A DNA stretch of 63,929 nucleotides, filler included, from Polymyxa betae A26-41 (taxonomy: Eukaryota > Protista > Endomyxa: Phytomyxea): NCBI GenBank assembly GCA_003693705.1. It is 10 parts of 10 records of this genome, joined end to end, with 100 filler letters (N's around TTAATTAATTAA, not from the genome) between each part and the next. Parts side by side here need not be neighbours in the genome. Positions count along the whole stretch, not along the records: positions 45,834 to 51,790 come from RBZT01000317.1; 9 more parts are not named here. One strand, written 5' to 3'. Both the position numbers and the translations under genes were made by a program. Every line of letters begins with the position of its first letter. Positions within the stretch are counted from its first letter, which is position 1. Below are positions 4,100 through 57,919 of this stretch, one piece after another. Below the pieces are notes generated by a model. The model did no database searches. It was not told the DNA's origin and saw only the letters and a program-made list of their open reading frames with translations.

Positions 4100-5617
4100 T
4101 TTTTCAATTTTGACTATCAATGTTTAAATATTCTCGTACAACCAAGGACCTAGTCGACCAGACAAATTGCAGATAAAGGATCTAATAATACTACCTAAAT
4201 CATTAAAACAATTTGGGAAAATGATGATTGTAATGTATTAGCAAAGAGATTCTTGGAACAATCTCGATTGGCACGTCGCAAACGTAGGACCAGATGGAGG
4301 GTACACTCCTTTTGAATGGAGTAAGAGGCGATAGTATGGTCCCATTCTGATCGTTTACCGGCAGTTATGAGGTGCCGCTGTTCAACAGGAATGCCTTCAG
4401 CATCTTCACGGATTGCAGGAGTTCCGTAACAAGAGCATTGAGCGGAACATCGATTTCACGCGTTTTGCCGGTGTGATAAACCAGGCCGAAAACACTGTGG
4501 AACGATAATGCATCAAATTGTTTATGAGGAGAAATTTTGAGAGAAAATCGGTGATGACTGATGATGGGCGGAATTGAGTCATTGATGTGGAGAGTCACGA
4601 CAGCCGGTCAGCGCCTTTAAAAGAAGCTTCATAAGACCTCACGACTTCAATTGGAGATGAGAATCCGGTCTGGGCCACCAGATCGGAAGAGTTTTGGAAC
4701 CTTCCGTAGGATACGGATACATGGCCCGATATCGGGCGGACTTCTCGGATTCACTCAGATACGGGTTATACTCTAACTCGATCTCATCCGAAATTTTCAT
4801 CCGGAATCGGTTGAAGTTCAGCTGAGTTCGCCTTGGGGATCGGAATTGGACAAGAAGCCGGCTGCTATCCTGTTCTCATCCCTTTTCACACCAATTCAGT
4901 CAGGCGATTTTCATAGAATGTAACGTTTACGCTTGGGATCTCTAGTAGCAGATCGGGTGGTTTTTTGCGGGTGATGTTTTAAATGATTTCATTCCGGTAA
5001 TGAAGAACCGTACAGAGGCGGGCTCGCATATATCGGCATGGGTTTTCGCCAACTCTTCACTATCCGTGATGCTCTTTTCTTGCGGATCATCCAGCAAATC
5101 TGTGATTTCGAGTAAATATCTCTGAATCTTCCAACATAAATGTGTCGCAGTCCCAAATCACATAAGAACACATTAAAGAAATCAGCAAATGTGCAATGGT
5201 CGGGTCTATTTTGCTTACAGAATCTTCACAGAAATTCGACATTGTAGATTGAGATAGTCCCATGCCCTATCATGGCGTCTCCTTCATCATCAGATAGGAA
5301 AATCCATGTAGGCGACCTAGCTGAGAGCCGCCCAGGAGCCGGTGTTCCACTAAGGCTCCGATCGGATTCTGGATTAAGGTCGGGTACCAATTGGATCAAA
5401 GTAGTGAACGGTACCCGACCTCGAACATCCAGAGCTCTGTGCAATCGAATCAACTGGAAAAAATTTAACAAAAATACATCTGAAGCTACCGGCTGACCGA
5501 TTTTGATTGAGATGCTTTTAAAATAACTGTCCTTGGATCATTCCTCCCTGAGTTCCGCTCATACTGATAGGAGTTTTTGCTGATTCTCTATACAGTATAT
5601 TTTTTTACATGATTATT

Positions 5618-6413: not shown

Positions 6414-7929
6414 ATGCGTTCAGAAAAGACACCCGCAGTCCGTGATCAACCTCGGGCGATCTTCAATGAGGATTATGATTTGCTTGAAACTGCAATCTCC
6501 AAAAACATAATTGTTTTTCAAAGATCGAATCGAATCCTTTCTAATATCGCTCGTAGGTGGGATCATGACGAAGGTCAGGCATTCTATGTCAAGATGTCCA
6601 ATGTATTCATTACGGGAAATTCGCTGAAAGCATATAATTGTCGTGCTGTGTACTTTGAAGGTGGATGTGCTCTGTCCCCAGACCCTTATCCCATTGAAGA
6701 GTTTCGGATAACCAATGGGAAACAAGTCACCTATATCGATCAAGCAATAGTCATATCACAGCATTTCGGTTTTGCTTATTATCACTGGCTAATCGAGGTC
6801 ACTTTGGATTTATTGCTTTCTCTTGAAACTTAATCATCGCAGCTGAATTTTCACTTTTTGTTTCATTTTGTGTAAGATTTTCAGTTATAGTGGGCGCTTG
6901 CTTCAAATTTGGGACAAACTTTCACAGCTTTGATCCTCCTTAACCCATTTATTTCATCGATCCATCAGTCTGTTTGCTTTCACAGTTTCTCATTTGATTC
7001 GTTTTGCTAATGAGCCGTTGTGTAGGCGCTGCCACGTTTAAGCATGCTCTATGACACTATCCAGGTCGATAAGGAAATGAAAATTATAATGTTCGAAAGC
7101 GAGGTCCCTGAAGTTGGGCCGACCATCCTACTGTTGCTGGATATCGACCCAAAACGAGTCATCTGGTATCATGCTGAGCAGGTCTATTACGTCCGAGATG
7201 TCACGATCCCTTCGCCTGCACAGTGTGGTAAAGCCATCTCACCCGCCATTTATTCGCTGAAAAAGATGTTACGAACCAAGCTGATGGAAAAATTCCCTAA
7301 AAAGGTCAGCATTGGAAAGCATTTCTCACAATTACTGTGATGCTCTGATGTTTGAAAGATCAGAAAGCCATATCTAACTGAAATTCAAATAGTTCAATCC
7401 AGAAGAAAAGCGAAAATGCCCTTTACCATTGTGGTGCAAGATCGCGGCGACGCCCGTCGATCTTTGTTCAACCACAACGAACTTGTTCGTGCCGTTCAAT
7501 CTGCACACACAGACGCTTTGATCCTCCAGTTTGGACCAAAGGAAGGCTTCCTTTCCATGGCCAGGAAACATTTCTACGCCGATATTATCGTAGGCCCGCA
7601 TGGTGCAGGCCTAAGCAACGTTCGTAAGAATATTGAACGTGTTTTCTTGGCTCAGATCAGCACAGGCTGTTTTGGCCCCAGATGGCGCGGCAGTTATAGA
7701 GATCCATCCCAATGAAGGGAATCAATATGATGAAGGTCCACATTATGTCAACAGCTGCCATCAAAGGACGGCTCGTCGGACCGGCTTGCGATCTGTTCTG
7801 CTTTTAGAAGATAATGGGGACACAGCACACCCGTTTTTCACCAATATATCGCGAGTCGTTGATACCATCAAGAAGATTCGAGCAGGCGATTTTGAACATA
7901 TCGATCAGTACGTCAGCTGGCAGCTTTGA
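6414..7929 (+). CDS. Glycosyltransferase family 61 (DUF563-like), multi-exon; 5' end uncertain
   Basis: YYHWLIE|ALPRL after splicing 6798-7025; ADIIVGPHGAGLSN and AVIEIHP are GT61 hallmark motifs. Confidence 0.85.
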
Positions 7930-34202: not shown

Positions 34203-35523
34203 ATGAATATTGCTATTGTGATCACTGCTCTCCTGTTCGTGACGGTCTCTGCCACCAAGAGCGACCCCGAATCCAGCCATGGTCGCGTCCCTGCCAGCGA
34301 GGTCAACATCGAGACGAGTTCCAGCCTCGGTGCTGCAGTCATCGATGCACCCACCGTACTGGCCCCGTCCCGCCGGTCGCCTGACTTGCCCGAACGTCAT
34401 CTCGAGCTTGAGCTCATTATTAAGAACGCAGAGTTCGGCCTGAATTTGTTTTCGGCGTTCGCCCATCTCAGCAAAACAAGCTACGAGCTTGTCCGTGGCC
34501 GGGCTCGCGATGTGTGGCGGAAAGCGGTCGTCGGATGGCGACTTCCCTGAGACATGGAGGCAGCTGTTTTCGCGTTCGGCCTCCATTTTCTCCGACATTT
34601 TCACCGACGAAACAGCCGCCTTTTTCTTAAGCCGGCTCCAGGTGTCAGCGCGTCATTCACCGGACGCCGTGCTGGATCTGTTCACGAAGAGCGGAATCGG
34701 ACGGATCCCATCTGTTGGCAGATTGATTCCCGGTTGGATCGCATCCATCGAATTAGTGAATTATTTCTCCGCTCGAGGAGCAGTTCTCACCAACCGATCT
34801 GGTGAAATATTGAAGTTAATTCCTGAGGAATGTGGCTCAATATCCACGGACAATATTCCTGTTGATGTTCTCGCAATACTCCAGCAAGATGACGACTATG
34901 ATTACGACCAATTCGGCACCATGCCAGGATCTCTCAAAAAACGCCATTGGACGGTAATCAGGGTTTCCAAGATTGTTGCAGCACAATATATTCGATCCCT
35001 CCCAGATCTCCCCCGAACTCTGTACTTTCTCGGGTTCCCTCTTTATCTGCCGTTTGTGAGTCTCTCACGTCTCACGACCTCCGACCTGCAGCGTATTTTG
35101 CCTTTTGTTCTATATTCGGACCTTGCGCTGGCAGACAAGATTAAAGTCTTAATCCAACGAGGACGTTCCGATGTGATCTCCGCCATCATTCAGTGCGAGA
35201 ACTTCCGATTCGGGTCCAGTAAATCAATTTACAGAATCATGCTGCACCTGATCGTCATCGAGAGACATCACGGCTTCTTACGCGCTCTGCTGCAGACGAA
35301 GTTCAGGGACGGCCTGCTCCATAAAGTCGCATCTAGAACATCTCCTATTCCGATTCTGCATCATGCCGTACAGGTCCGTAATGCCGCCGCCGTTCGTGAG
35401 CTGCTCTTAATTGAGGGTCTGTTCGATTTGAATCTTCTCGACAATAAGAACCGCACTGCCCGTTCTTATGCTGAAGAAGGCTCGGAGATCGCTATGTTAT
35501 TGGATGGTCCGAGCTCTGTGTAA
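34203..35523 (+). CDS. Candidate secreted protein: signal peptide, F-box-like motif, C-terminal ankyrin repeat; one frameshift near 34530
   Basis: MNIAIVITALLFVTVSA; DLPERHLELELII...FAHLSKTSYELV; PILHHAVQVRNAAAVRELL...DLNLLDNKNRTARSYA. Overlapping ORFs 34158-34550 and 34489-35523. Confidence 0.7.
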
Positions 35524-35622
35524 TATCTTGATGAATGTTGTGATGCTTGATAAATTGGCTCTTTTCCGATAAACTCCTCCTTGTTGTAAATCCGACTTCT
35601 GAGACTGTGCTGTGTTACTATG

Positions 35623-36790
35623 TGTTAGAACTAGGGGTTCTACTTGGTAACGTAACAGCGTCGGGGAAGCGTCAAGATAGCCCTACTGCCATGAGAGCAT
35701 GCGTTAGATGGGGCCTAACATCATGTCTGATTTTGTATTAGGGCTATCTTGACGCTTCCCCGACGCTGTTACGTTACCAAGTAGAACCCCAAGTTCTAAC
35801 AGGTTATGGGCCCAGCTCAAGGGGGCCGGGCGGCTCGGGTTTGGTGCTGCCGGTGCGGTCAAGTTGAGATCTCCTTTGGGGATAACTTCGGTGATGGAGA
35901 TGCTCGTGAAAGCGAACTGTCAAGATGATGATCGTCAAGGATGAATGGAATGAACTCACGGAGAAGTTACGCCGCGAACAGAGGGCTCCGCTGAGGTCGC
36001 AAGGACTCGGTTGGAGTATGCATCGTTCGGGCGGGAGCTGAAGAAGCCGCGTCGGATAAGACAGAAGAGGCCATGGTAAAAGGGCTACGCGAGGAACAGG
36101 CAGCGTCCCAGGAGGCCGCAGGGAAGCGGCGGGAGCAACGTTCGAGCGGGAGCTGAGGAGGCCGCGATGCTTAGGAAGTCCGCGCGCTAAGGGATTTACG
36201 GAGAAGATAAGTCGGACTGAAACCGGGGAAGGCGCTGCTGCGGACAGGAGGTCCGCGGGTCGCAGGCAATGAAGCTGGTGTCGACTTACGCCGTAACGTA
36301 AAAGAAATCGTGATGTTCGAGTGAGGAGAAGATGAGGACGGTCTAACGACGGAAAAGGGGCAAGAATTTGAAGAAGATGAAGATGGGAATGCGATGAGGT
36401 GCGGGATGGACCAGGCAAGTCATAAGGTGGGAGACTGCAGAGCCTATAACTCCAAGGGTCGGAGTCCGTCGGAAACGGAGGCGCAGTTACTGTATTGTTA
36501 CACAGTCGTTGTCCAAAGTTTGATTGCTGGTGCCGGAGCTGCTGAAACCTGAAGTCGCAGAGGCGTGCCGTTTTGTACGATCGCCGATTCGTCTGGGCGG
36601 GAGTGTTGGAGTTGTCAGACTCCGTGTGATCACGTGCTATCGATCGTACGGTACTAATGGGGCATGCGACCCTAATAAACAATCAGACATGATGTTAGGC
36701 CCCATCTAACGCATGCTCTCATGGCAGTAGGGCTATCTTGACGCTTCCCCGACGCTGTTACGTTACCAAGTAGAGCCCCAAGTTCTAACA
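35623..36790 (+). mobile_element. Small non-autonomous copia-type LTR element (TRIM-like) with palindromic rearranged 5' LTR
   Basis: TSD CTATG at 35618-35622 and 36791-36795; TG...CA ends; PBS GGTTATGGGCCCAGC 35802-35816; PPT GGGCGGGAG before 3' LTR 36604-36790; 5' LTR 35623-35801 has 63-bp inverted arms. Confidence 0.92.
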
Positions 36791-36795
36791 CTATG

Positions 36796-45494: not shown

Positions 45495-45733
45495 TAGAGC
45501 GGATTCTTCAGATCGCGATTTCAGGTTACTACAAAATCTGGCAGCACTTCGGTCAGATCGTAATGAATTGTGTTTTATTTCCAGCTCGAGTCCCAGCTTC
45601 ATTCAGCTCTGTCCGTACGGACACCGTACGGACCTCTGGGAATTGAGCCCATTATAATTAGAGTAGGTCTTCATACTTCATCAATGTTCGCATCTTTTCT
45701 ACGCATATGCGTCAGTCTTCGAGTCTTATTGCG
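45495..45733. repeat. Dispersed repeat, copy 1 (copy 2 at 57350-57595)
   Basis: ~240 bp near-identical sequence beginning TAGAGCGGATTCTTCAGATCGCG; both copies run toward contig ends. Confidence 0.9.
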
Positions 45734-47624
45734 NNNNNNNNNNNNNNNNNNNNNNNNNNNNNNNNNNNNNNNNNNNNTTAATTAATTAANNNNNNNNNNN
45801 NNNNNNNNNNNNNNNNNNNNNNNNNNNNNNNNNTTATTGCTGTTTAGGAACGCTTAAGCACCACCTGTTGACAACGGTCAGCGGATAGGACAAATCCAAT
45901 CCAATCCAACTGCTTCAGAATCCACAACCTGTTGGTTCAAATCTCGCAACTGATCATATACCTTTCAAACGAGATCTCGAGCTGGCCAGGGCCTCAGCAG
46001 CAACGTTCTTCCGAAGCAGCAATATGTTACATTCCTTAAGATATCTTATTGTGAGTTAGGGCACCAGATGCTGATAAAGCTACAGTTGCATTCACACGAT
46101 ATATATTTAGTGTTCGAAGGCTGTTTTTTCTTCAGTAAAGTTTTTTTATCACGAATATCGCTGTTGATAGAAGACTTATCGATCTATATAACCTCTTTCA
46201 ACGTCGTCGACATCAGAAATTTCTTCATAGATTTCGGCGGTGATGTACGATCAAATGCCCATCAGCATTAGATCGCAAATCGTGACAGCCTCAGTCTTTA
46301 GAAAGATTCCTTTCGGCAAAATGCCAAAATCATTGTCATCCCGCCCGTCAATAAAGTCCGAAACTTTTCGTATGGGGATATTTGAGGATTAAGACCGCCG
46401 GTAGGGTACTTGAACCGCCCTCTAAACATTTGTTGAAACTGGGAGTCCCCCATTTAGTGTGGTCCACACTAATTACTCTGAACATATCAGCTAGTTATTA
46501 TATCTCATTGCATCAACAACGCACCGCTTATCACTTCTCTAATTTTAAAATGCTATATTCAACTACTACCTGAAGCTCGTAACAAATGGCTTTTAGATCC
46601 CGCACTCGGGTAACTGTGCCGCCCACCCGCAATCCAATCCAATTCAATCCAATGAAAAAATCAAGGAAAAAATACGCAACTGTAAAGTGTCAGCTATAGA
46701 ACAGATTGTTTATATTAGTTGATCGCTTTCATCAAAGGAATCGATGATCTTATCACGACAGGTAGATTGCTGAGCGCTACGTGCTGGAGGCTTCTTGATG
46801 GCTGCAAAGTAATCTCTATCGATTCCCTCTGATTGCGGCTCTCACCTCGAAATAAGGTGAAAATTCAGCATCCGATTTAGTGAACAGTTGTCGGGAAAAG
46901 TCTAAGCAAAAATTCCTCGATGTCGTTTCGTTGAACTATATCGAACACTTCCAGCTTAATTTGGCTGTCGCTTATGGTCGGCAGCGATAGAAGGAAGTCC
47001 TTTAATTGTAACAAAAATGTTTTTCACAGACCTTATCTACCAATCATCAGAATTTGATATAGATCTATCTGCTGAATAGTTTGCACATCTTGTAACAATC
47101 CTCCAGTTCAAGAGCATTATGAATCTATGCTAGTTGTACATTCTATTGGACTAGAATGCAGCCGCTCTAGAAGCGAATCGTTCATCTGATGTTGATCGGA
47201 TTAGCCAGACATTAAATCGCGTATTAATACAGTCTGGTACCTGTTTAAAAGTAAGTGTTGCAGCGTTACATTCAGTGGATCAGCAGCAGCTTTACTACCA
47301 CAATTCCCAATATAATTCAAAGAGGATCCAGGTTCGGGAATAAATACTCCCAACGGAACTCAGCGAACCTGCTTGGTGGATGCCAGTACATCACCAACTG
47401 AAGTTGGTTGCATAAGGACAACAAGAGCGCGAAGATAATTTTTGAATGGATTTTCGGCCCATTTGTAACGCAGGACTAATTCGTACTTGCAAAGCGCCAT
47501 TTGAGATAGTCTGTTGAAATATAATGTCAACAATATTTCTCAATGGATTTTATTGTTGAGGATGATCATGGTTGTTTGAGATAAAGTGACGCAGTTTGGT
47601 GCATCCAGGAAGCTATTCGTCATG

Positions 47625-49212
47625 GCGGGCACGACTAAGCTCATTCGTAACTTGAATCAGCTGAGATGCGGATCGCCGATTTCAATTCGTGACTGGATCC
47701 GGTCCATAAGTCGCCATAAAGATACCAGCTTCCTTGTTGTTAAATCGACGGGTAGAGATGCGATTCTGTCAATATGCTGCTCATTGCTTTCGAACAGAAC
47801 CAATATGGAAGAGTACAAATCGTTTACAAGAAAGGCAGTGACGTTGCCGATAAACTCATTAATCGTGCCGCCATCGTTATCTCTGGAATGCTGATGAAAT
47901 GTCCCTTTTTTCGGCGTAATTCTGGTCGCGAGATCATCGCTGAATCGACTCGCATTGTTGGCCCATGCATTGCATCTGTGTATCCTGTCCAAAAGAATTA
48001 TCATACAAATGTATGGTTCTACCTGAACGTATTCTTCTCGGTTGTGATCATGAAGGCAGGAATTCCTACGCCGGAACCAGCACCTTCGTGGGCGAACCGC
48101 CGAATTCAGCTCGACAATGAGATGTAGCAGCGCTGCACAAGCTATCCACAGTTTCTTCAGCAATCGCCAGTTTCAATGGATTCATGCCCCCATCATAACA
48201 GCTGGAGATTGCGAAGGCGCAGGGGAGGTGTTTGAAGTTACGCCAGCCTCAGAGCAACAATCGCCTACACGCGATGAAGCAGAAGTCTTTGGGACTCGCG
48301 CTTACTTATCGGTCTCAGCTAAGCTGCATGCAGAAATATTCGCATGCTCCATTGGGTGACCTCGATTCGCTGTTTTGCACCTGGATGACGGTTAGGCCGG
48401 TATACACATTCGGCCCGACATTCCGTTTAGAGAATTCGAATCCAGCCGGCATCTTGCAGAGTTCTGGATTGTGGAACCAGAGATTCCCTACGCCGACCTT
48501 GATGTCCTTTGCAACACTGTACAGGATCTCGTTAAACATTTTGTGACCAATGCACTGACTAATAACGAATCCGATCTGGATCAGCTACTTGGTGACAAAA
48601 ACGAAGATCGAGCGTCGTTGATAACGTGCTCTGAAAAAGACTTCGCTAGAATCACTTATTTTGAAGCCATCCAGGTCTGAAGATCTCGGCATCTCTTGCA
48701 ATTTCTCTGATCAGCAAATTACAGATTCTCCCAAACTGCTTCTTTAAGTTTTAGCATCAGTCAGTATGGGGCAGAAGCCTTCAAACCGAGCATGAGCTGT
48801 ATCTAGCATCCCATCATTTTTTTCAAACAGTTCGTAAGCTTTCACGAATGCAACTGATGTTTCATATTCTCTTTTGCAGTCCAGTGTTTATGACCGACTA
48901 TCCTGTTGCTATAAAGCCATTTTACATGAAGAGATTCAAAATCGGATCCGACCGTCGCCTGTCTCGATTTGCTTCTACCTTGAATTGGTGAAGTCGTTGG
49001 CGGAAGTGAATGTATCAATGACGTCAACGAGCGGATAACGGTGATGCATACCCGCAATATCGACAAGTCCAAAATGGATTGGTATATTGATCTAAGAAGG
49101 TGGAAGTCTCTTAACCAAAAACGACGATTCCTATTTACGAATTGCTTAGGTTTGGATCTATACCTCATGGTGGCTTTGGCCTTGGATTCGACCGCCTAAT
49201 CCAGTTCATCGG
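47625..49212 (+). pseudogene. asnS: Asparaginyl-tRNA synthetase (organellar/bacterial type) pseudogene, 3'-truncated
   Basis: PIITAGDCEGAGEVF, AYLSVSAKLHAE, VYTFGPTFR, HLAEFW, DYPVAIKPFYM, GEVVGGS, WYIDLRR|FGSIPHGGFGLGFDRL; introns, frameshifts and a stop. Confidence 0.92.
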
Positions 49213-49215
49213 AGC

Positions 49216-49830
49216 CTAGAAATCGCCAAAAACTTGGTCGTTGCTGGTGTAAACAGCATTGTTTTAGTAGATGCTAATCCTGTTTCGATTCGAGATTTGG
49301 CATCTGGTGTGAGTCGCTCGCTTACTTCTTCATGACGTTGTCATTTCTCAAGATTGCAAACCTAGTATTATTGTTCGGAATCACAAGTTGGCTGTGTATC
49401 TCTCGCGCTGAAGCTCCATTTCCTCATCTGGCGTCACTTACTCGCTTTGTGCATGTAGCTCTACATTATGGGTATTACTGAATGTTCAACTAACAAATTG
49501 CTCAGGCAGTTTTGATAATCGGGCTGATATCGTCGTGTACTCCGGTTGCTGTTCTATTATGGGCAGTTGATCATCCTATCGTGCATGATGCATTACTAGT
49601 CAATGAATACTGTATTCACAATATTAAATTCATTCAGGCTGATGTTTTTCGAATTTGCGACATGGTTAGCTACGTATTTGAACCTAAAATTTCAAATCTA
49701 ATGCTGTTTAGGTATTTGTTGACAATGGAGACGAGTTCGTCGACCAAGATTGTGATGGCGATCCTGGTCTGGAAGGACTCATTTTGCACACATATCTAAA
49801 GAAGATAATGCTGTTGTTACTTGTTTTAAT
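49216..49830 (+). pseudogene. Ubiquitin-activating enzyme E1 (UBA1-like) internal fragment
   Basis: LEIAKNLVVAGVNSIVLVD...IRDLAS; SRAEA; NEYC..IKFIQADV; VFVDNGDEFVDQDCDGDP...VVTC; GT-AG introns retained. Confidence 0.8.
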
Positions 49831-50248
49831 TCATCAGAAAACATTCCAGTTCCTGAATTTACCATGTAGGTATTCAGCTAAAGCATCCCTCTATCGGTCT
49901 TATAGTCAATGGCAGTGATTGACAGAGAGTGGCGATATTAAGCTTTTCATGATACTGACGAGCCGTCGGGCTGGCATTTCGACGCCGAACAAGACGTCGA
50001 TTGCAGCGTCAGTGTCCATTTCGATAAGCGAGGGATGGGTTGCTTCGGTCAGCCGCGCCTGCATTCCAGGCCGCTGTATTTGATGAAGTCGAGCTTGGTT
50101 GTCAATTGCGATCTGGTTTCGTTCTGCATTGATTCAGCTAGGACCCATACAGAATGGATCGGCCATCATTTATCTGTAAGTTCTGTAGCTTTATACATTG
50201 ACATTTTGATCGAATGATTCTAATGCTAGAGGTTCTATTTCAGGAAAC

Positions 50249-51075
50249 ATGAGAGGAGGGATCGTTGCTGATGGAAAATTTCAGAATCTGCTGCTTATGG
50301 TTTAAAAATTTGGGTTTTAGATACGGGACTCGGCAAAACTGCTCAAATGATCGCTTTGATTCTCACCTCGTTGCCATCGGAGTCAGCTTTAAAACAGTCA
50401 CAACCTGAACTTCCGCTCCATTTGAATCCAAACGCTGAATCCTACATGGTTAAAACCGTCTCCGCGACCACTTTGATTGTGTGTCCTCTAGTCTTCGTCA
50501 ACCAGGCAAATATATCAATTTCATTTATTAATTGGCTGTTCTGACTTTCCTTAGTGGCATCAGAAAATTCAACGACATACCGTCCCAAACAGTCTTCCAG
50601 TTCATATCCACCATGGACATAGTCAGCTTGAGGACGTTTTAAAAGCAACCGAGTTTGAAGTTATAATTACGACATACCATGTTTGGAATGTAATCGAGGC
50701 TTCAACGCTTTAATCTTCGGAGCCAGACAGTATTATCGTCAGGGTTGCTGGATGCTATTCATTGGTTTTTCGAATTGTTCTTGATGTATGTATCGTAACT
50801 TGTTTCGAAAACCAGATTTAACTATGGAATCTGGTAGGAAGCGCTCGTTATCAAGAACCACAATACTGCCATCGCAAAGGCCGTTTTTGGTCCAGAATCG
50901 CAAACGAGGTAGCTATACGTTGGTGGCCTTCCCAATCTGATGCTGAAATTTATTTGTGTAACAGGTGGTTAATGTTAGGTAATGTCTCAATATCGCCATT
51001 TGTTCTTCTTGATTTGTGTATTTATGTTATCGATTTAGCGATTCCCTTTCAGAACGAATTACGAGAAATGTTTTC
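50249..51075 (+). pseudogene. SNF2-family (RAD5/RAD16-like) ATPase N-terminal fragment
   Basis: RGGIVAD|..GLGKTAQMIALI, TTLIVCP, VIITTY, FRIVLD|EA.VIKN, PFQNELREMFS across short introns. Confidence 0.85.
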
Positions 51076-51370
51076 GGCGTTTCCGTTACTTTCCTTTCTG
51101 CGACGAACGTGACTGGGTTTCGCTCTTCGGTGAGCCCCAACCGTTAAAAATTCGCTCAAAGTTTTCTTATGAACGGTTTGTGTAAATCATTGAGGACCTT
51201 TGAAGGAGATTATAGCGCATTTCGATGTCGGGATGGATTCTTCGCTGCCAGTCTGCAGTCACTGAACCTCCCAATATCGATTCCAAGTTGGATCGTCGCG
51301 GATTTGTTTATCTTTCGCATATGCTCATACACCAAGCTAAAAAGCATAAGGTATGCAAGAGCTTTACTCT

Positions 51371-51495
51371 TTGATTAAGGCATCAACTAAGGTAATTCTA
51401 TCCACTTGAGTGATTGAAATTGGAAAACCGACTTGTGCTTCTTATAGGCTCCCATCATGTACATTTGTAATGACAGAAATAGTCCTAAGGTCAAG
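51371..51495 (+). pseudogene. Replication factor C large subunit (RFC1-like) fragment
   Basis: LIKASTK|APIMYICNDRNSPKVK after splicing 51392-51447; resembles the RFC1 PIICICNDR motif. Confidence 0.6.
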
Positions 51496-51890
51496 CAAGA
51501 CCTTGGCAAATTATTGTATTTATTTACGATTCAGTAGGTATCCTTACTACTGAATTAAATGCTATTTTACATCCCTAAATCCTCCTTTGAAAGGCCGATG
51601 GCAAATCCGGCCGCTCAGAGGATTCTTTCTTTTGCTAAACGAGAAGGTACTTGATGTCTTAGTGCTTTTCGATATCTTCTGACTCAATCTAAAGTTAAAT
51701 GTGTTGCTCGATCGTGATCGAAAGAGAAGGCCGTCCGCTGAGACCCTTCTGAAGTCGCTCTTTTGTATATACGCTTTCTTCGATATCTGANNNNNNNNNN
51801 NNNNNNNNNNNNNNNNNNNNNNNNNNNNNNNNNNTTAATTAATTAANNNNNNNNNNNNNNNNNNNNNNNNNNNNNNNNNNNNNNNNNNNN

Positions 51891-52857
51891 GTCACCGGTC
51901 TACTGTCGAATTCGTTTTTACAAGACGGTGTCCGAGACTGCAGTCTCGCAGCCCATTTTATCGGCCTGCTGGTCCGTGACGGCAACACCCCTCTGTCAGA
52001 CACGTTACAGGCCGTGAGACGCTCTTTGCCAAGTCCATCTCCGCATCCACGAATCCACACTACGCTCATTAACCGAATCCGCCAGTTATTGTTCGCTGTC
52101 CCGGACAACAACCGTCATCTCATCTTCGGAGACGTCATCGGACTTGCTCCGGACATTCGTAACGTCAATCACCTGGCCGTACTGGCCTTCATTCACGACC
52201 CCGTGCTCAGCCAGATTCTGAAATCTACGGACAATTGCGCCTTCGTCGCTGTCCGTCGCATTGCCAGGGCGCTGTTCCGCACGGCTCCGGGCGTCGTCCA
52301 GGCGCTGACGTACTGGACCCTGCAGAGCGAATTGCCGTATCTGTTCCGATCCGACGATCTCGATGTCGCTCGAGGTCTGCGGAATTGTTCACGGAGTTTG
52401 TTGGGCTGAAATTGGAGCTACAGATCGGCATTTGTACAGTTATCACTCGTTTGGTGATATGAAAAGGCTGCTGACAGCGTTGTCGTCGCGTAATACGATT
52501 TCCCCGAATGTCCGTCTGTTCCTGGACTGGACTTCTGTAAACCTTCCGATTCCCGAGGTTGTGCTTCCCAATTCTTATTTGGAACTTTCTTTTCATTTTA
52601 CTTTGATTTCTTCGTGCTGGTTATCTGAAATGGTTTTTTTGTTAAGGCTTCGATTGAACCGTGACTATCAGGCCGTGTCTGATACCTGCTGTATCTGCAT
52701 GGAGAAGATAACCGACGATATCTGCTGTGATCTGGAATGCCGCTGCCAGCTCGTCTTCCATGAAGAATGTCTGAAGCGATGGTTCGTCCAGCAGCCCACC
52801 TGCCCGACCTGTCGTCGAAGTAACCTGGAAGTCAATTTCAAGTTCATTTGTCAATAA
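51891..52857 (+). CDS. RING (C4HC3) protein, 5'-truncated by contig end; paralogue of 54191-56417
   Basis: Shared domain NHLAVLAFIHDP...IARALFRTAP; RING CCIC-x13-CRC-x4-HEECLKRW...CPTCR; intron with GTCTGC donor at the same site as in the paralogue. Confidence 0.85.
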
Positions 52858-54190: not shown

Positions 54191-56417
54191 ATGATCTGGT
54201 CTACACAACTGGTGCTGGTCGTGCTGGCTCTGCTTCTGAGCAGTGGCCTTCCTGCCTCACCTAATGCTGCTGATCGGATCTTGGAACCGGATCATCACGC
54301 TTATATTGTGAAGTTGATAGGCGATGTGCGCTATTACATGCAGCGTAGTTCGCATTCATCGTCCTGTAACATACATTGGGACTCTCTGCGGGATATGATA
54401 CAGAGCCTGCCGGCGTCCTCGATTATAACCTGGCATAACGGTGATTCGATACTTCTGGCATTGTCGGAGGCCGCTCTGAGACCTCAACCTGTCGATTGGG
54501 ACTTCTCGAAAACGCTGCGAGAGATTCCTCCATCTGCGCTTGCCAAACCAAATCATTACAAAGAGATCCAACTTGTCAGAAATCTGGTCAGGTATACAAG
54601 CTTAGTGAAAATTTTCCAGAAAATTTATCCCAAAACAGTATCAGTTTTTTTGATTCAATTTTTCCGCAAACGTTTTCTAGATTTTTGGCCAGCTATTTCT
54701 GTTAATGATAATGTTACAGGATCGGAAATTTCAGCTTTCATCCTGAATTTGCTCTCGAGTTGCTGTTTTCTCACGGTCAATGGTGAACTTCAACACTGTT
54801 CTAACGTCTGGTGAATAACACAATTCGTTAGGGTTTCCGATTCCAGCAGTGATCCCTATGTGTACTCTATCCTGCGTAATATTGATGGTCACACAAAATC
54901 CACATTTCTCTATAAATGTGTATTCCCGAGATGGTCTGTTTACGGAAATATTCATCTGAATCTTTGGTAACATTACTTGTGATCAACAGGATGATGTATT
55001 TTCGCAGTGGATCATGTCCGTACGGGCCCAAATTCGATTTTGTATTAGCTCGGACTGCTCAGCTGGCACTGATGTCCGAGCCCTTTAATGAAGATGTTCT
55101 AAGCAATGTCCCCGGTGCCCGCCCTACTGAAATGTTACATATGTGGCGTATCATTATCGAGGAGTCCGTCCTTTGCTTTAGAATCCATAACTTTCCCAAT
55201 TAACGAGAAATTTTGTATTTTTTAAATTCTTTCATATCTCAGATCCGCGCAGATCTGCTTAAATCTCTTCACGAATATTTCATTTTCATTATGTCTATTG
55301 CTCGATTTTGGCTTACTTTTTGTGGCAGATACTTAGATTATCGGTTCTATGTATTCCGCGATTTAATACTGGATGATGAAACAATCATCGCTAAACTGCT
55401 GGAATATTTCCCTGAGAATTGTGATTCTGCTCACATCAGTTTCACTTCAAATTTCATTGCTCATTCAGTACGCGCTAGCTACATTTCGATCGCAGAAATA
55501 CTCCAGCTCGTGAAGCAATATTTAACGTCAGACAATGCTCTGTCCTCGCTAATCACGCGGGTTTTAAGGCTATCCTCGCCTGGTAAAGCGCTCTACTTCG
55601 GACACGTCATTGGATACAATCCGAGGAAGTTCGGCGTCCACAACATCAATCATCTGGCTGTTCTGTCCTTTATTCATGACCCGACACTCCGCGCGATTGC
55701 CAAGTCCGACAACGATTGCGCGTCTCTCGCTGTGTGTAGCATTGCCCGAGCCTTGTTCCGCACCGCTCCCAGCGTCGTCCGGGCCCTAACCTTCTGGACC
55801 GCCGGCACCGCTCTATCGGCTTTCAAAACATCTCCCGAATTGGATTCTATCAAAGGTCTGCACATTGATCTGTTCCTTTGGCATCTCTAAATTTGGAATT
55901 ATAGAGCGACATTGGGATAGCAATGCATCGTCAGATGATATGAAGAGATTACTGAACGGGTTGCGCTCTCGAAAACAAAGGTCGCTCAAGGTCCGTAATT
56001 TCCTGCAGTGGACCTCAGAGCAAGTTGATGCTTCTTTGGATGAAACCTCACCTGATGCTTCTTTGGATGAGACTTCACCTAATACTGTAATGTTACATTG
56101 TGTCATCATTTCAAAATTTCACAGATTCAAACTGGATCTTTTGCTTTCATTCTCTATTGCCTAATTCGCTTTTTTTCCATATTTTAATCGTTTTCTTCTC
56201 TTCTAACAAGATGTGTTAGTGTGATGAATGTCCTATCTGTCTGGAGCCCACGACATTACAAGATTTGATACCGAAATGCAAATGCAATCAGAAATATCAC
56301 GCTGCCTGCCTGCATTCGTGGCTCGAACTTACACTCACTTGTCCGACATGTCGTACTGACATATCATACCTATCGCGAACAGACCCTTCTTATTTGCAAC
56401 AATTTCATCAGCAATAA
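54191..56417 (+). CDS. Candidate secreted RING (C4HC3) E3 ligase, multi-exon
   Basis: MIWSTQLVLVVLALLLSSGLPA signal peptide; NHLAVLSFIHDP...IARALFRTAP; last exon 56220-56417 CPICLEP...CKCNQKYHAACLHSW...CPTCR; 27-bp tandem repeat (DASLDETSP x2) near 56026-56080. Confidence 0.8.
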
Positions 56418-57320: not shown

Positions 57321-57919
57321 ATTACTGTTCGTGTATTTTAAGTGCCCGTTAGAGCGGATTCTTCAGATCGCGATTTCAGGTTACTACAAAATCTGGCAGC
57401 ACTTCAGTCAAATCGTAATCAATTGTGTTTTATTTCCAGCTCGAGTCCCAGCTTCATTCAGCTCAGTCCGTACGGACACCGTACGGACCTCTGGGAGTCG
57501 AGCCCATTATTATTAGAGTAGGTCTTCATACTTCATCAATGTTCGCATCTTTAGTACGCATCAGATTTATGCGTCAGTCTTCGAGTCTTATTGCGGACGC
57601 AGTTCCATCAAACTGCGTACGCTATTTTTTGGGAAAATCAGAAGTTTTATGTAATTTTTAATAAATCTNNNNNNNNNNNNNNNNNNNNNNNNNNNNNNNN
57701 NNNNNNNNNNNNTTAATTAATTAANNNNNNNNNNNNNNNNNNNNNNNNNNNNNNNNNNNNNNNNNNNNGATACAAACGGAAAACTGCTTTTTAAAACGAT
57801 GGTCGCCCTCCAGATACTACTGAAAGTCTGCTTGATGAACCACCCAAAAAAGCAGCAAAGAAAGCAGGACGACCTAGAGGGGCCAAGAATATTGCAAAAT
57901 GTCCCTTGACCACTTATCA

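What the first reader, a model, noticed from the sequence alone, without database searches (positions are those of the whole stretch)
47625..51770. Chain of intron-retaining fragments from 4-5 unrelated housekeeping genes on one strand
Seen on one contig, all on +: an AsnRS pseudogene runs directly (~49212) into a mid-gene UBA1-like E1 fragment, then a SNF2/RAD5-like ATPase fragment (50249-51075), an RFC1-like 2-exon snippet (51371-51495) and possibly kinase subdomain XI (LLDRDRKRRPSAETLL, ~51700-51765). All are truncated, and the first four keep GT-AG introns, so they were copied from DNA rather than retroposed. Established: serial same-orientation capture of gene pieces is typical of Helitrons and Pack-type DNA transposons. 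Inference: this is the cargo region of a gene-capturing element, a possible exon-shuffling source in this lineage. No element ends or Rep/Hel gene are visible.
Basis: partly seen in the sequence, partly recalled or inferred. Interest (0 to 1): 0.78.

Follow-up and report, generated by a model that had tools for sequence, protein, structure and literature searches.

The report
Transcribed chain of captured gene pieces
In an unidentified eukaryote, broken intron-bearing copies of six different genes lie fused head to tail on one strand, and part of the chain is still transcribed and spliced; it is likely the cargo of a gene-collecting transposon, a known kind of thing, but no transposon ends were found.

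Summary
The chain is real and longer than reported. Public DNA and RNA runs hold separate donor copies (5-9% diverged) that leave the contig at sharp, mostly mid-exon junctions: AsnRS | E1 | an unnamed spliced gene | SNF2 | an unnamed piece | RFC1-like | kinase-like. Zero-difference DNA contigs cross four junctions at single-copy depth. RNA contigs of another study carry this copy's letters, spliced. Sister copies share the 3' module with other neighbours, which points to stepwise build-up. All 6 pieces of known strand are on +. AsnRS, E1 and SNF2 have tool support; RFC1 and kinase rest on recalled motifs only. The vehicle is not shown: the 5,957-bp contig has no mapped element end, the window has no Rep/Helicase hit, and junction overlaps (0-2 nt) are at chance level. 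Best reading: cargo of a non-autonomous Helitron-type element (0.5); rivals are a TIR Pack element or a repair-made patchwork. The scan noted similar co-oriented patchworks in other genomes (e1-9043746, e1-7470507). A new member of a known kind.

The parts
45857..46408 (.). Repeated segment of unknown identity, likely two or more copies
   Evidence: DNA contig 45857-46295 at depth 304, about twice the single-copy level; other contigs leave at 46403 and 46408; an RNA contig carries 921 other letters before 45857
46455..46494 (+). 8-bp-stem hairpin, 18 nt spacer, then CTAG followed by T: weak Helitron-3'-end-like motif
   Evidence: matched in 4 of 60 shuffles; not at a mapped boundary
46542..47182 (.). 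Copy of an expressed, unidentified sequence (about 7% diverged)
   Evidence: RNA contig 46542-47182 with 45 other letters; no Pfam hit; 0 hits in 1.84 billion proteins for one minus-strand frame
47240..47395 (.). Short piece with an expressed donor; start approximate
   Evidence: Shared differences in DNA and three RNA runs end at 47395 (table 3)
47396..47621 (+). Likely AsnRS upstream DNA and 5' UTR
   Evidence: Donor RNA starts at 47587; DNA depth 402 against RNA depth 0-7 in bin 47426-47624; assignment to the AsnRS donor is inferred
47622..49212 (+). Bacterial-type (likely organellar) AsnRS pseudogene, 6 introns, at least 3 frameshifts and 2 stops, last ~21 codons missing
   Evidence: donor mRNA 86 differences in 1148 listed exon letters and donor continues past 49212
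49214..49825 (+). N-terminal part of a ubiquitin-activating E1, 3 introns, frameshifted
   Evidence: donor leaves before 49214 and behind 49825; 26 differences in 471 letters
49824..50251 (+).
   Evidence: RNA joint 49865>49916 GT..AG; RNA leaves at 50180 with letters matching 50245-50251; 14 differences in 265; no Pfam or Atlas family
50252..51188 (+). SNF2-family ATPase piece, 6 whole introns including one beside a 14-nt micro-exon, plus part of a seventh
   Evidence: 8978-nt donor contig with 83 differences in 937 letters; this copy is spliced in RNA
51189..51197 (.). 9 unassigned letters at the junction
   Evidence: SNF2 donor ends at 51188, sister contigs begin at 51198
51198..51349 (.). 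Unidentified piece shared with sister copies; 3' limit inferred
   Evidence: DNA and RNA contigs join here with another upstream sequence; RNA contig 51198-51393 has 4 differences
51350..51702 (+). RFC1-like piece, 4 exons and 3 introns; name from recalled motifs only
   Evidence: RNA joints 51393>51450 and 51643>51692; another copy leaves at 51702; searches gave no family
51703..51770 (+). Kinase-C-terminus-like exon end plus intron start; name from a recalled motif only
   Evidence: Matching RNA leaves at 51753, matching DNA at 51770; blank
51791..51890 (.). Artificial contig linker (N44-TTAATTAATTAA-N44); the same linker lies at 45734-45833
   Evidence: neighbours across linkers show no genomic order

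Best explanation
The contig is a mosaic of intron-keeping DNA copies of separate host genes, fused head to tail and decaying, and it is likely the inside of a non-autonomous Helitron-type element that probably gathered the pieces one step at a time. Shown: each piece has its own matching contig elsewhere that runs on past the junction; the joins are in reads; the 3' module occurs with other neighbours; part of this copy is transcribed and spliced. Inferred: each piece was copied by template switching or gap filling during replication or repair of the element, with 0-2 nt of overlap; the element was re-copied between captures, giving sisters; the shared strand reflects the sense bias reported for Helitron cargo. 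The products are likely non-coding.
For: Donor contigs leave at 49212, 49214, 49824/5, 50252, 51198, 51702 and 51770. Zero-difference DNA contigs: 50196-51242 (depth 155) bridges two junctions fully; 49183-49366 and 49796-49928 (depth 141, 173) cross two more with 30 letters on the short side. Sisters: an RNA contig at depth 43.5 has 140 other letters, then 51198-51393, spliced on to 51450; other DNA contigs join at 51485 and leave at 51702. One DNA contig joins 47395 to 49824, as a sister without AsnRS+E1 would (depth 166, side 30, weak). 6 of 6 pieces of known strand are +: chance 0.03, or 0.24 under the 78.6% sense bias of maize Helitrons; that preprint found no bias for Pack-MULEs, and 68% of Helitrons with 2 or more pieces (10.1101/777037, passages). 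Stepwise capture by Helitrons: PMC3288121, PMC4224331, PMC6544945 (passages). This copy has T/A where other contigs have C/G at 109 places against 73 the other way (p 0.009), as a decaying copy would.
Against: No 5' TC or 3' hairpin-CTRR at any mapped boundary; the one motif (46455-46494) has an 18-nt spacer against 10-13 in PMC4683698 and appears in 4 of 60 shuffles. No Rep/Helicase family in Pfam scans of this contig or of 97 long and 150 of 173 short frames elsewhere in the window, whereas hAT, DDE_Tnp_4 and DDE_3 transposase remnants are present. No old termini lie between the pieces, which simple end-bypass would often leave. Overlaps of 0, 0-2, 2 and about 1 nt match chance (0 nt 55%, 1 nt 28%, 2 nt 11%). 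Strand is unknown for four unnamed pieces, and the splice-site scan leaned weakly to minus for some. Sister copies are known only from contig ends.
Confidence: 0.5

Rival explanations
1. A transposon-independent repair patchwork: repeated template switching or end joining at a fragile or subtelomeric site pasted gene pieces together, and ectopic recombination spread modules.
For: No element ends; near-blunt joins and a 9-nt unassigned stretch; sisters share modules, not shown ends. Earlier scan notes read similar chains this way (e1-9043746, e1-7470507; unchecked).
Against: Does not predict 6 of 6 on one strand (0.03). No telomere-like tandem array in the contig. Nearly all captured DNA is genic.
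Confidence: 0.22
2. Cargo of a Pack-type TIR element (MULE, CACTA, hAT, Harbinger or Tc1), filled by gap repair.
For: TIR-transposase remnants lie in the window. Pack-TIR breakpoints have a median 2-nt microhomology (PMC8277862, passages). 50% of maize Pack-MULEs carry 2 or more pieces. Transduplication is reported in a fungus (PMC3538342, passages).
Against: No inverted repeat pair was listed in the contig among the 25 longest of 61. Pack-MULE cargo showed no strand bias in maize. The contig is at least 6 kb with about ten pieces and no end in view.
Confidence: 0.2
3. A decayed segmental duplication: the donors were neighbours in this order, and deletions fused them.
For: Divergences of the older pieces are of one order (5.3-8.9%). 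Donor positions could not be mapped: no genome is held.
Against: SNF2 (83 of 937) and E1 (26 of 471) differ in divergence (Fisher p 0.027). The SNF2 donor contig has 7050 letters upstream and no listed piece or joint ties them to the other fragments (tables cut). The 3' module has other neighbours in sisters.
Confidence: 0.04
4. An assembly chimera, or an RNA-templated chimera made by reverse transcriptase switching between transcripts.
For: The contig lies in a pool of small unplaced contigs; the best DNA run may be the source sample. RNA templates would explain the shared strand.
Against: The copy differs 5-9% from donors, so it cannot be donors mis-joined; junction-crossing contigs have depth 141-173; RNA of another study carries this copy's letters and crosses 51702 with no difference (short sides 19 and 11). 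No intron loss was seen in any piece.
Confidence: 0.04

Closest known systems
Non-autonomous gene-capturing Helitrons (maize PMC3288121 and 10.1101/777037; bats PMC4224331; moths PMC6544945; passages read)
   Same: Several DNA-level gene pieces, stepwise gain with sisters sharing blocks, sense bias, chimeric transcription
   Different: No TC or hairpin-CTRR end mapped, no Rep/Helicase partner seen, no old termini between pieces; host is an unidentified eukaryote with 40-64-nt introns
Pack-MULEs and Pack-TIRs (PMC8277862, PMC5861414, PMC3538342; passages read)
   Same: Intron-keeping pieces, short or no microhomology, multi-donor chimeras, transcription
   Different: No TIR or target-site duplication seen; strand bias is not reported for maize Pack-MULEs
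Repair-made patchworks (FoSTeS/MMBIR-type complex insertions, subtelomeric duplicons; recalled, and named in unchecked scan notes e1-9043746 and e1-7470507)
   Same: Near-blunt joins of unlinked templates, partial amplification
   Different: Strict co-orientation is not expected; no telomere repeat here

Membership tests
Helitron | 5' TC end | tested here: inconclusive
   The 5' boundary of the repeated segment (45857) starts AGC, not TC; the true end may lie outside the contig
Helitron | 3' GC-rich hairpin 10-13 nt before CTRR | tested here: inconclusive
   One motif at 46455-46494, spacer 18 nt, 4 of 60 shuffles, upstream of the chain and off the mapped boundaries; none at the 3' end
Helitron | Insertion between A and T without target-site duplication | not testable with these tools
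   No flanks and no genome
Helitron | Rep/Helicase partner in the genome | tested here: inconclusive
   None in the window frames scanned; the genome is not held
Helitron | Multiple DNA-level captures, sense-biased, stepwise (typical, not defining) | tested here: met
Pack-MULE / Pack-TIR | Terminal inverted repeats | tested here: inconclusive
   None listed within the contig (25 longest of 61 pairs shown); ends likely outside
Pack-MULE / Pack-TIR | Target-site duplication | not testable with these tools
   No flanks
Pack-MULE / Pack-TIR | Microhomology above chance at breakpoints | tested here: inconclusive
   0, 0-2, 2 and about 1 nt at four junctions; chance gives the same
Processed (retroposed) chimera | Loss of introns | tested here: not met
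   Introns that donor RNAs skip are present in the window
Subtelomeric duplicon patchwork | Position beside telomere repeats | tested here: inconclusive
   No tandem array in the contig; position in the chromosome unknown

The most novel reading that the evidence does not exclude
A family of gene-collecting elements with no Helitron or TIR ends that captures host DNA strictly in the transcribed direction (for example the displaced strand at transcription bubbles), swaps modules between copies, and yields spliced multi-gene RNAs in a poorly sampled eukaryote lineage.
Probability: 0.1. Interest if true: 0.8.

Novelty: new member of a known kind. Interest (0 to 1): 0.42.

Why it matters
If the vehicle is a Helitron or Pack element, this extends maize-style serial gene capture to a compact, intron-dense eukaryote with no close relative among the protein hits, and it gives clean junctions, donors and sisters for testing end-bypass against gap-filling models. 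It also warns that such genomes hold transcribed, spliced decoys of core genes that can mislead annotation and expression counts. It matters less as a source of new proteins, since every identifiable piece is broken.

Tried and rejected
No whole genome is held, so donors and element ends could not be mapped. The first AsnRS homologue search found nothing; the second gave 844 hits, the 120 listed all 37-42% identical with prokaryotic names where named, so the organism was not identified. Whole-frame PDB searches of 49200-51790 gave 0, 2 and 1 chance-level hits. E1 exon 49494-49796 gave no E1 hit. RFC1 tests were blank; kinase tests were blank. The unnamed gene gave only Atlas scores of 0.76 with low recognition. 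The 46544-47182 minus frame gave 0 hits; the Atlas was not run on it. Rfam: 0 matches in the contig. Metagenome scans: 0 loci and 3 loci that are 21-22-nt chance matches in 66-70% GC DNA. No RNA holder was listed as such; X2, X3, X5 and X6 are taken as RNA because they skip introns. X2 and X3 have no cover at 96% or more over 49000-49751; this proves nothing, but one continuous transcript is not shown. A 5'-to-3' age gradient was considered and rejected: 7.5, 5.5, 5.3 and 8.9% are not monotonic, and the kinase-like match (1 difference in 49) is too short. The splice-site scan could not orient the unnamed pieces (background 2.4 hits per kb). No second patchwork was recognised elsewhere in the window (23 of 173 short frames not scanned).

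Full report
Setting. The window is a string of small contigs joined by an artificial linker. The finding lies in one contig, 45834-51790, so nothing beyond the linkers shows genomic order. Other contigs are mostly transposon remnants: Gypsy, Copia, hAT, DDE_Tnp_4 and DDE_3 domains. No genome is held. The organism was not identified: the 120 listed AsnRS hits are 37-42% identical.

Identity of the pieces. AsnRS is firm. It keeps its start codon and six introns, has at least three frameshifts and two stops, and stops about 21 residues short of a bacterial homologue's end. E1 is supported by TIGR01408 (E 2e-4, positions 37-66 of 1008) and weakly by PDB; a second E1 exon gave no E1 hit. SNF2 is supported below the Pfam cut-off; the RAD5 subfamily was not tested.

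Donors exist and mark the junctions. Fifteen runs hold words of the contig; I laid five. At 80% likeness (X1, X2, X5, X6) three runs skip introns and so behave as RNA. Their contigs match AsnRS exons with 86 differences in the 1148 letters listed. DNA contigs match E1 with 26 in 471 and SNF2 with 83 in 937. These contigs leave the window at sharp places: behind 49212 (AsnRS runs on in frame), before 49214 and behind 49825 (E1 runs on both ways), before 49824, before 50252 and before 51198, and behind 51753 and 51770. One is a spliced gene at 49824-50251: its RNA skips 49866-49915, and its letters behind 50180 match the window again at 50245-50251. The other is 51198 to about 51349. The 5' part of the contig also has separate matching contigs (45857-46408, 46542-47182, about 47240-47395). 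The tables were cut (178 pieces, 77 loose ends and 9 joints not shown), so the anatomy is a lower bound.

The joins are real. At 96% likeness over 49000-51790 (X1, X2, X3), zero-difference DNA contigs cross four junctions. 49183-49366 and 49796-49928 (depth 141 and 173) have 30 letters on the short side, one under the rule, which is what a graph branch at the junction gives. X1 may be the source sample. In another study, RNA contigs with no difference from this copy are spliced in the SNF2 piece (50503>50553, 50785>50838, and through a micro-exon), at depth about 5-6. Two zero-difference RNA contigs cross 51702 in both X2 and X3, with short sides of 19 and 11 letters. One spliced contig ends exactly at 50244, the first base after the unnamed gene's acceptor; this hints at splicing from that gene into SNF2 but does not show it. 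A mis-join of donors is excluded because the copy differs from them by 5-9%. The copy carries T/A where other contigs have C/G at 109 places against 73 (p 0.009; all other contigs pooled).

Sisters. An RNA contig (depth 43.5, 4 differences) has 140 other letters, then 51198-51393, spliced on to 51450; a DNA contig has the same other upstream. Further DNA contigs join at 51485 and leave at 51702. The one leaving at 51702 meets a stop within a few codons in all three frames (read from its loose end), so it is likely a sister, not the intact gene; no intact RFC1-like donor was seen. One DNA contig joins 47395 to 49824 (side 30, letters between unknown), a weak sign of a sister without AsnRS and E1. 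Modules with changing neighbours are what stepwise capture leaves (PMC3288121, PMC4224331, PMC6544945; passages).

Mechanism. Introns that donor RNAs skip are all still in the window, so the source was DNA. Six pieces have a known strand, all +; chance is 0.03. A maize preprint reports 78.6% sense cargo for Helitrons and no bias for Pack-MULEs (10.1101/777037, passages; its supplementary figure S11 was not seen). That tips the odds to a Helitron. Against: no end is mapped; the only hairpin-CTAG motif is upstream, has a long spacer and occurs in 4 of 60 shuffles (canonical ends from PMC4683698, passages); no Rep/Helicase family was found in the frames scanned; no old termini lie between pieces. 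Overlaps at four junctions, read from donor loose ends, are 0-2, 2, 0 and about 1 nt, which fits gap filling (median 2 nt in Pack-TIRs, PMC8277862, passages) but equally chance. So internal template switching is likelier than plain read-through, whatever the vehicle. In the fungus Pleurotus, Helitron cargo was described as unlike the host-fragment capture of plants and animals (PMC4289320, passages); transduplication by TIR elements is reported in Pyrenophora (PMC3538342, passages); chimeric Helitron transcripts in maize are cited in PMC5861414 (passages).

Novelty. Multi-gene, co-oriented, transcribed cargo is known. Six paper searches (listings only, apart from the passages named) cannot tell whether this lineage is covered, because the organism is unknown; I make no claim that it is not in print. 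The scan noted like chains in other genomes and read them as repair patchworks (unchecked), and no look-alike of this sequence.

Verdict. Real feature, observation partly confirmed and extended. Helitron-type cargo 0.5, repair patchwork 0.22, Pack-TIR 0.2, the rest 0.08. New member of a known kind; interest 0.42.

Noticed in passing
window 35622-35801 and 36670-36791: A roughly 180-nt LTR-like repeat whose two ends (about 63 nt) are near-perfect inverted copies of each other, followed by a Copia-like primer site (recalled), about 870 nt with no Pfam hit, and a second partial copy: a small non-autonomous LTR element with a palindromic LTR.
   Followed up: partly
window 50965-50978: A 14-nt micro-exon in the SNF2 piece is still spliced in by transcripts of the dead copy.
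   Followed up: partly
window 50506-50554: A GC-AG intron in the window copy that is spliced in zero-difference RNA contigs.
   Followed up: partly
window 51479-51593: RNA contigs join 51479 to 51536 and to 51591, which suggests a cryptic donor near 51490 and alternative splicing in a sister copy (table 5c).
   Followed up: no
window 46378-46408: A DNA contig leaves at 46403 with 26 letters that are nearly the reverse complement of the preceding stretch: a fold-back in another copy, or an artefact.
   Followed up: no
window 45890-45910 and 46631-46655: Short CCAAT-type repeats occur twice in the 5' part of this contig; the 10-letter double motif occurs nowhere else in the window.
   Followed up: no
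window 52309-52857 and 56220-56414: Two RING-finger domains in one contig, likely paralogous genes.
   Followed up: no
window 34444-35523: A 359-aa intronless frame with weak C-terminal ankyrin hits next to the LTR element.
   Followed up: no
window 45495-45706 and 57350-57561: A 212-nt repeat (96% identical) near the ends of two contigs.
   Followed up: no
window 4198-4455 and 7356-7715: A ubiquitin-family frame on minus and a glycosyltransferase-61-like frame on plus in one small contig.
   Followed up: no
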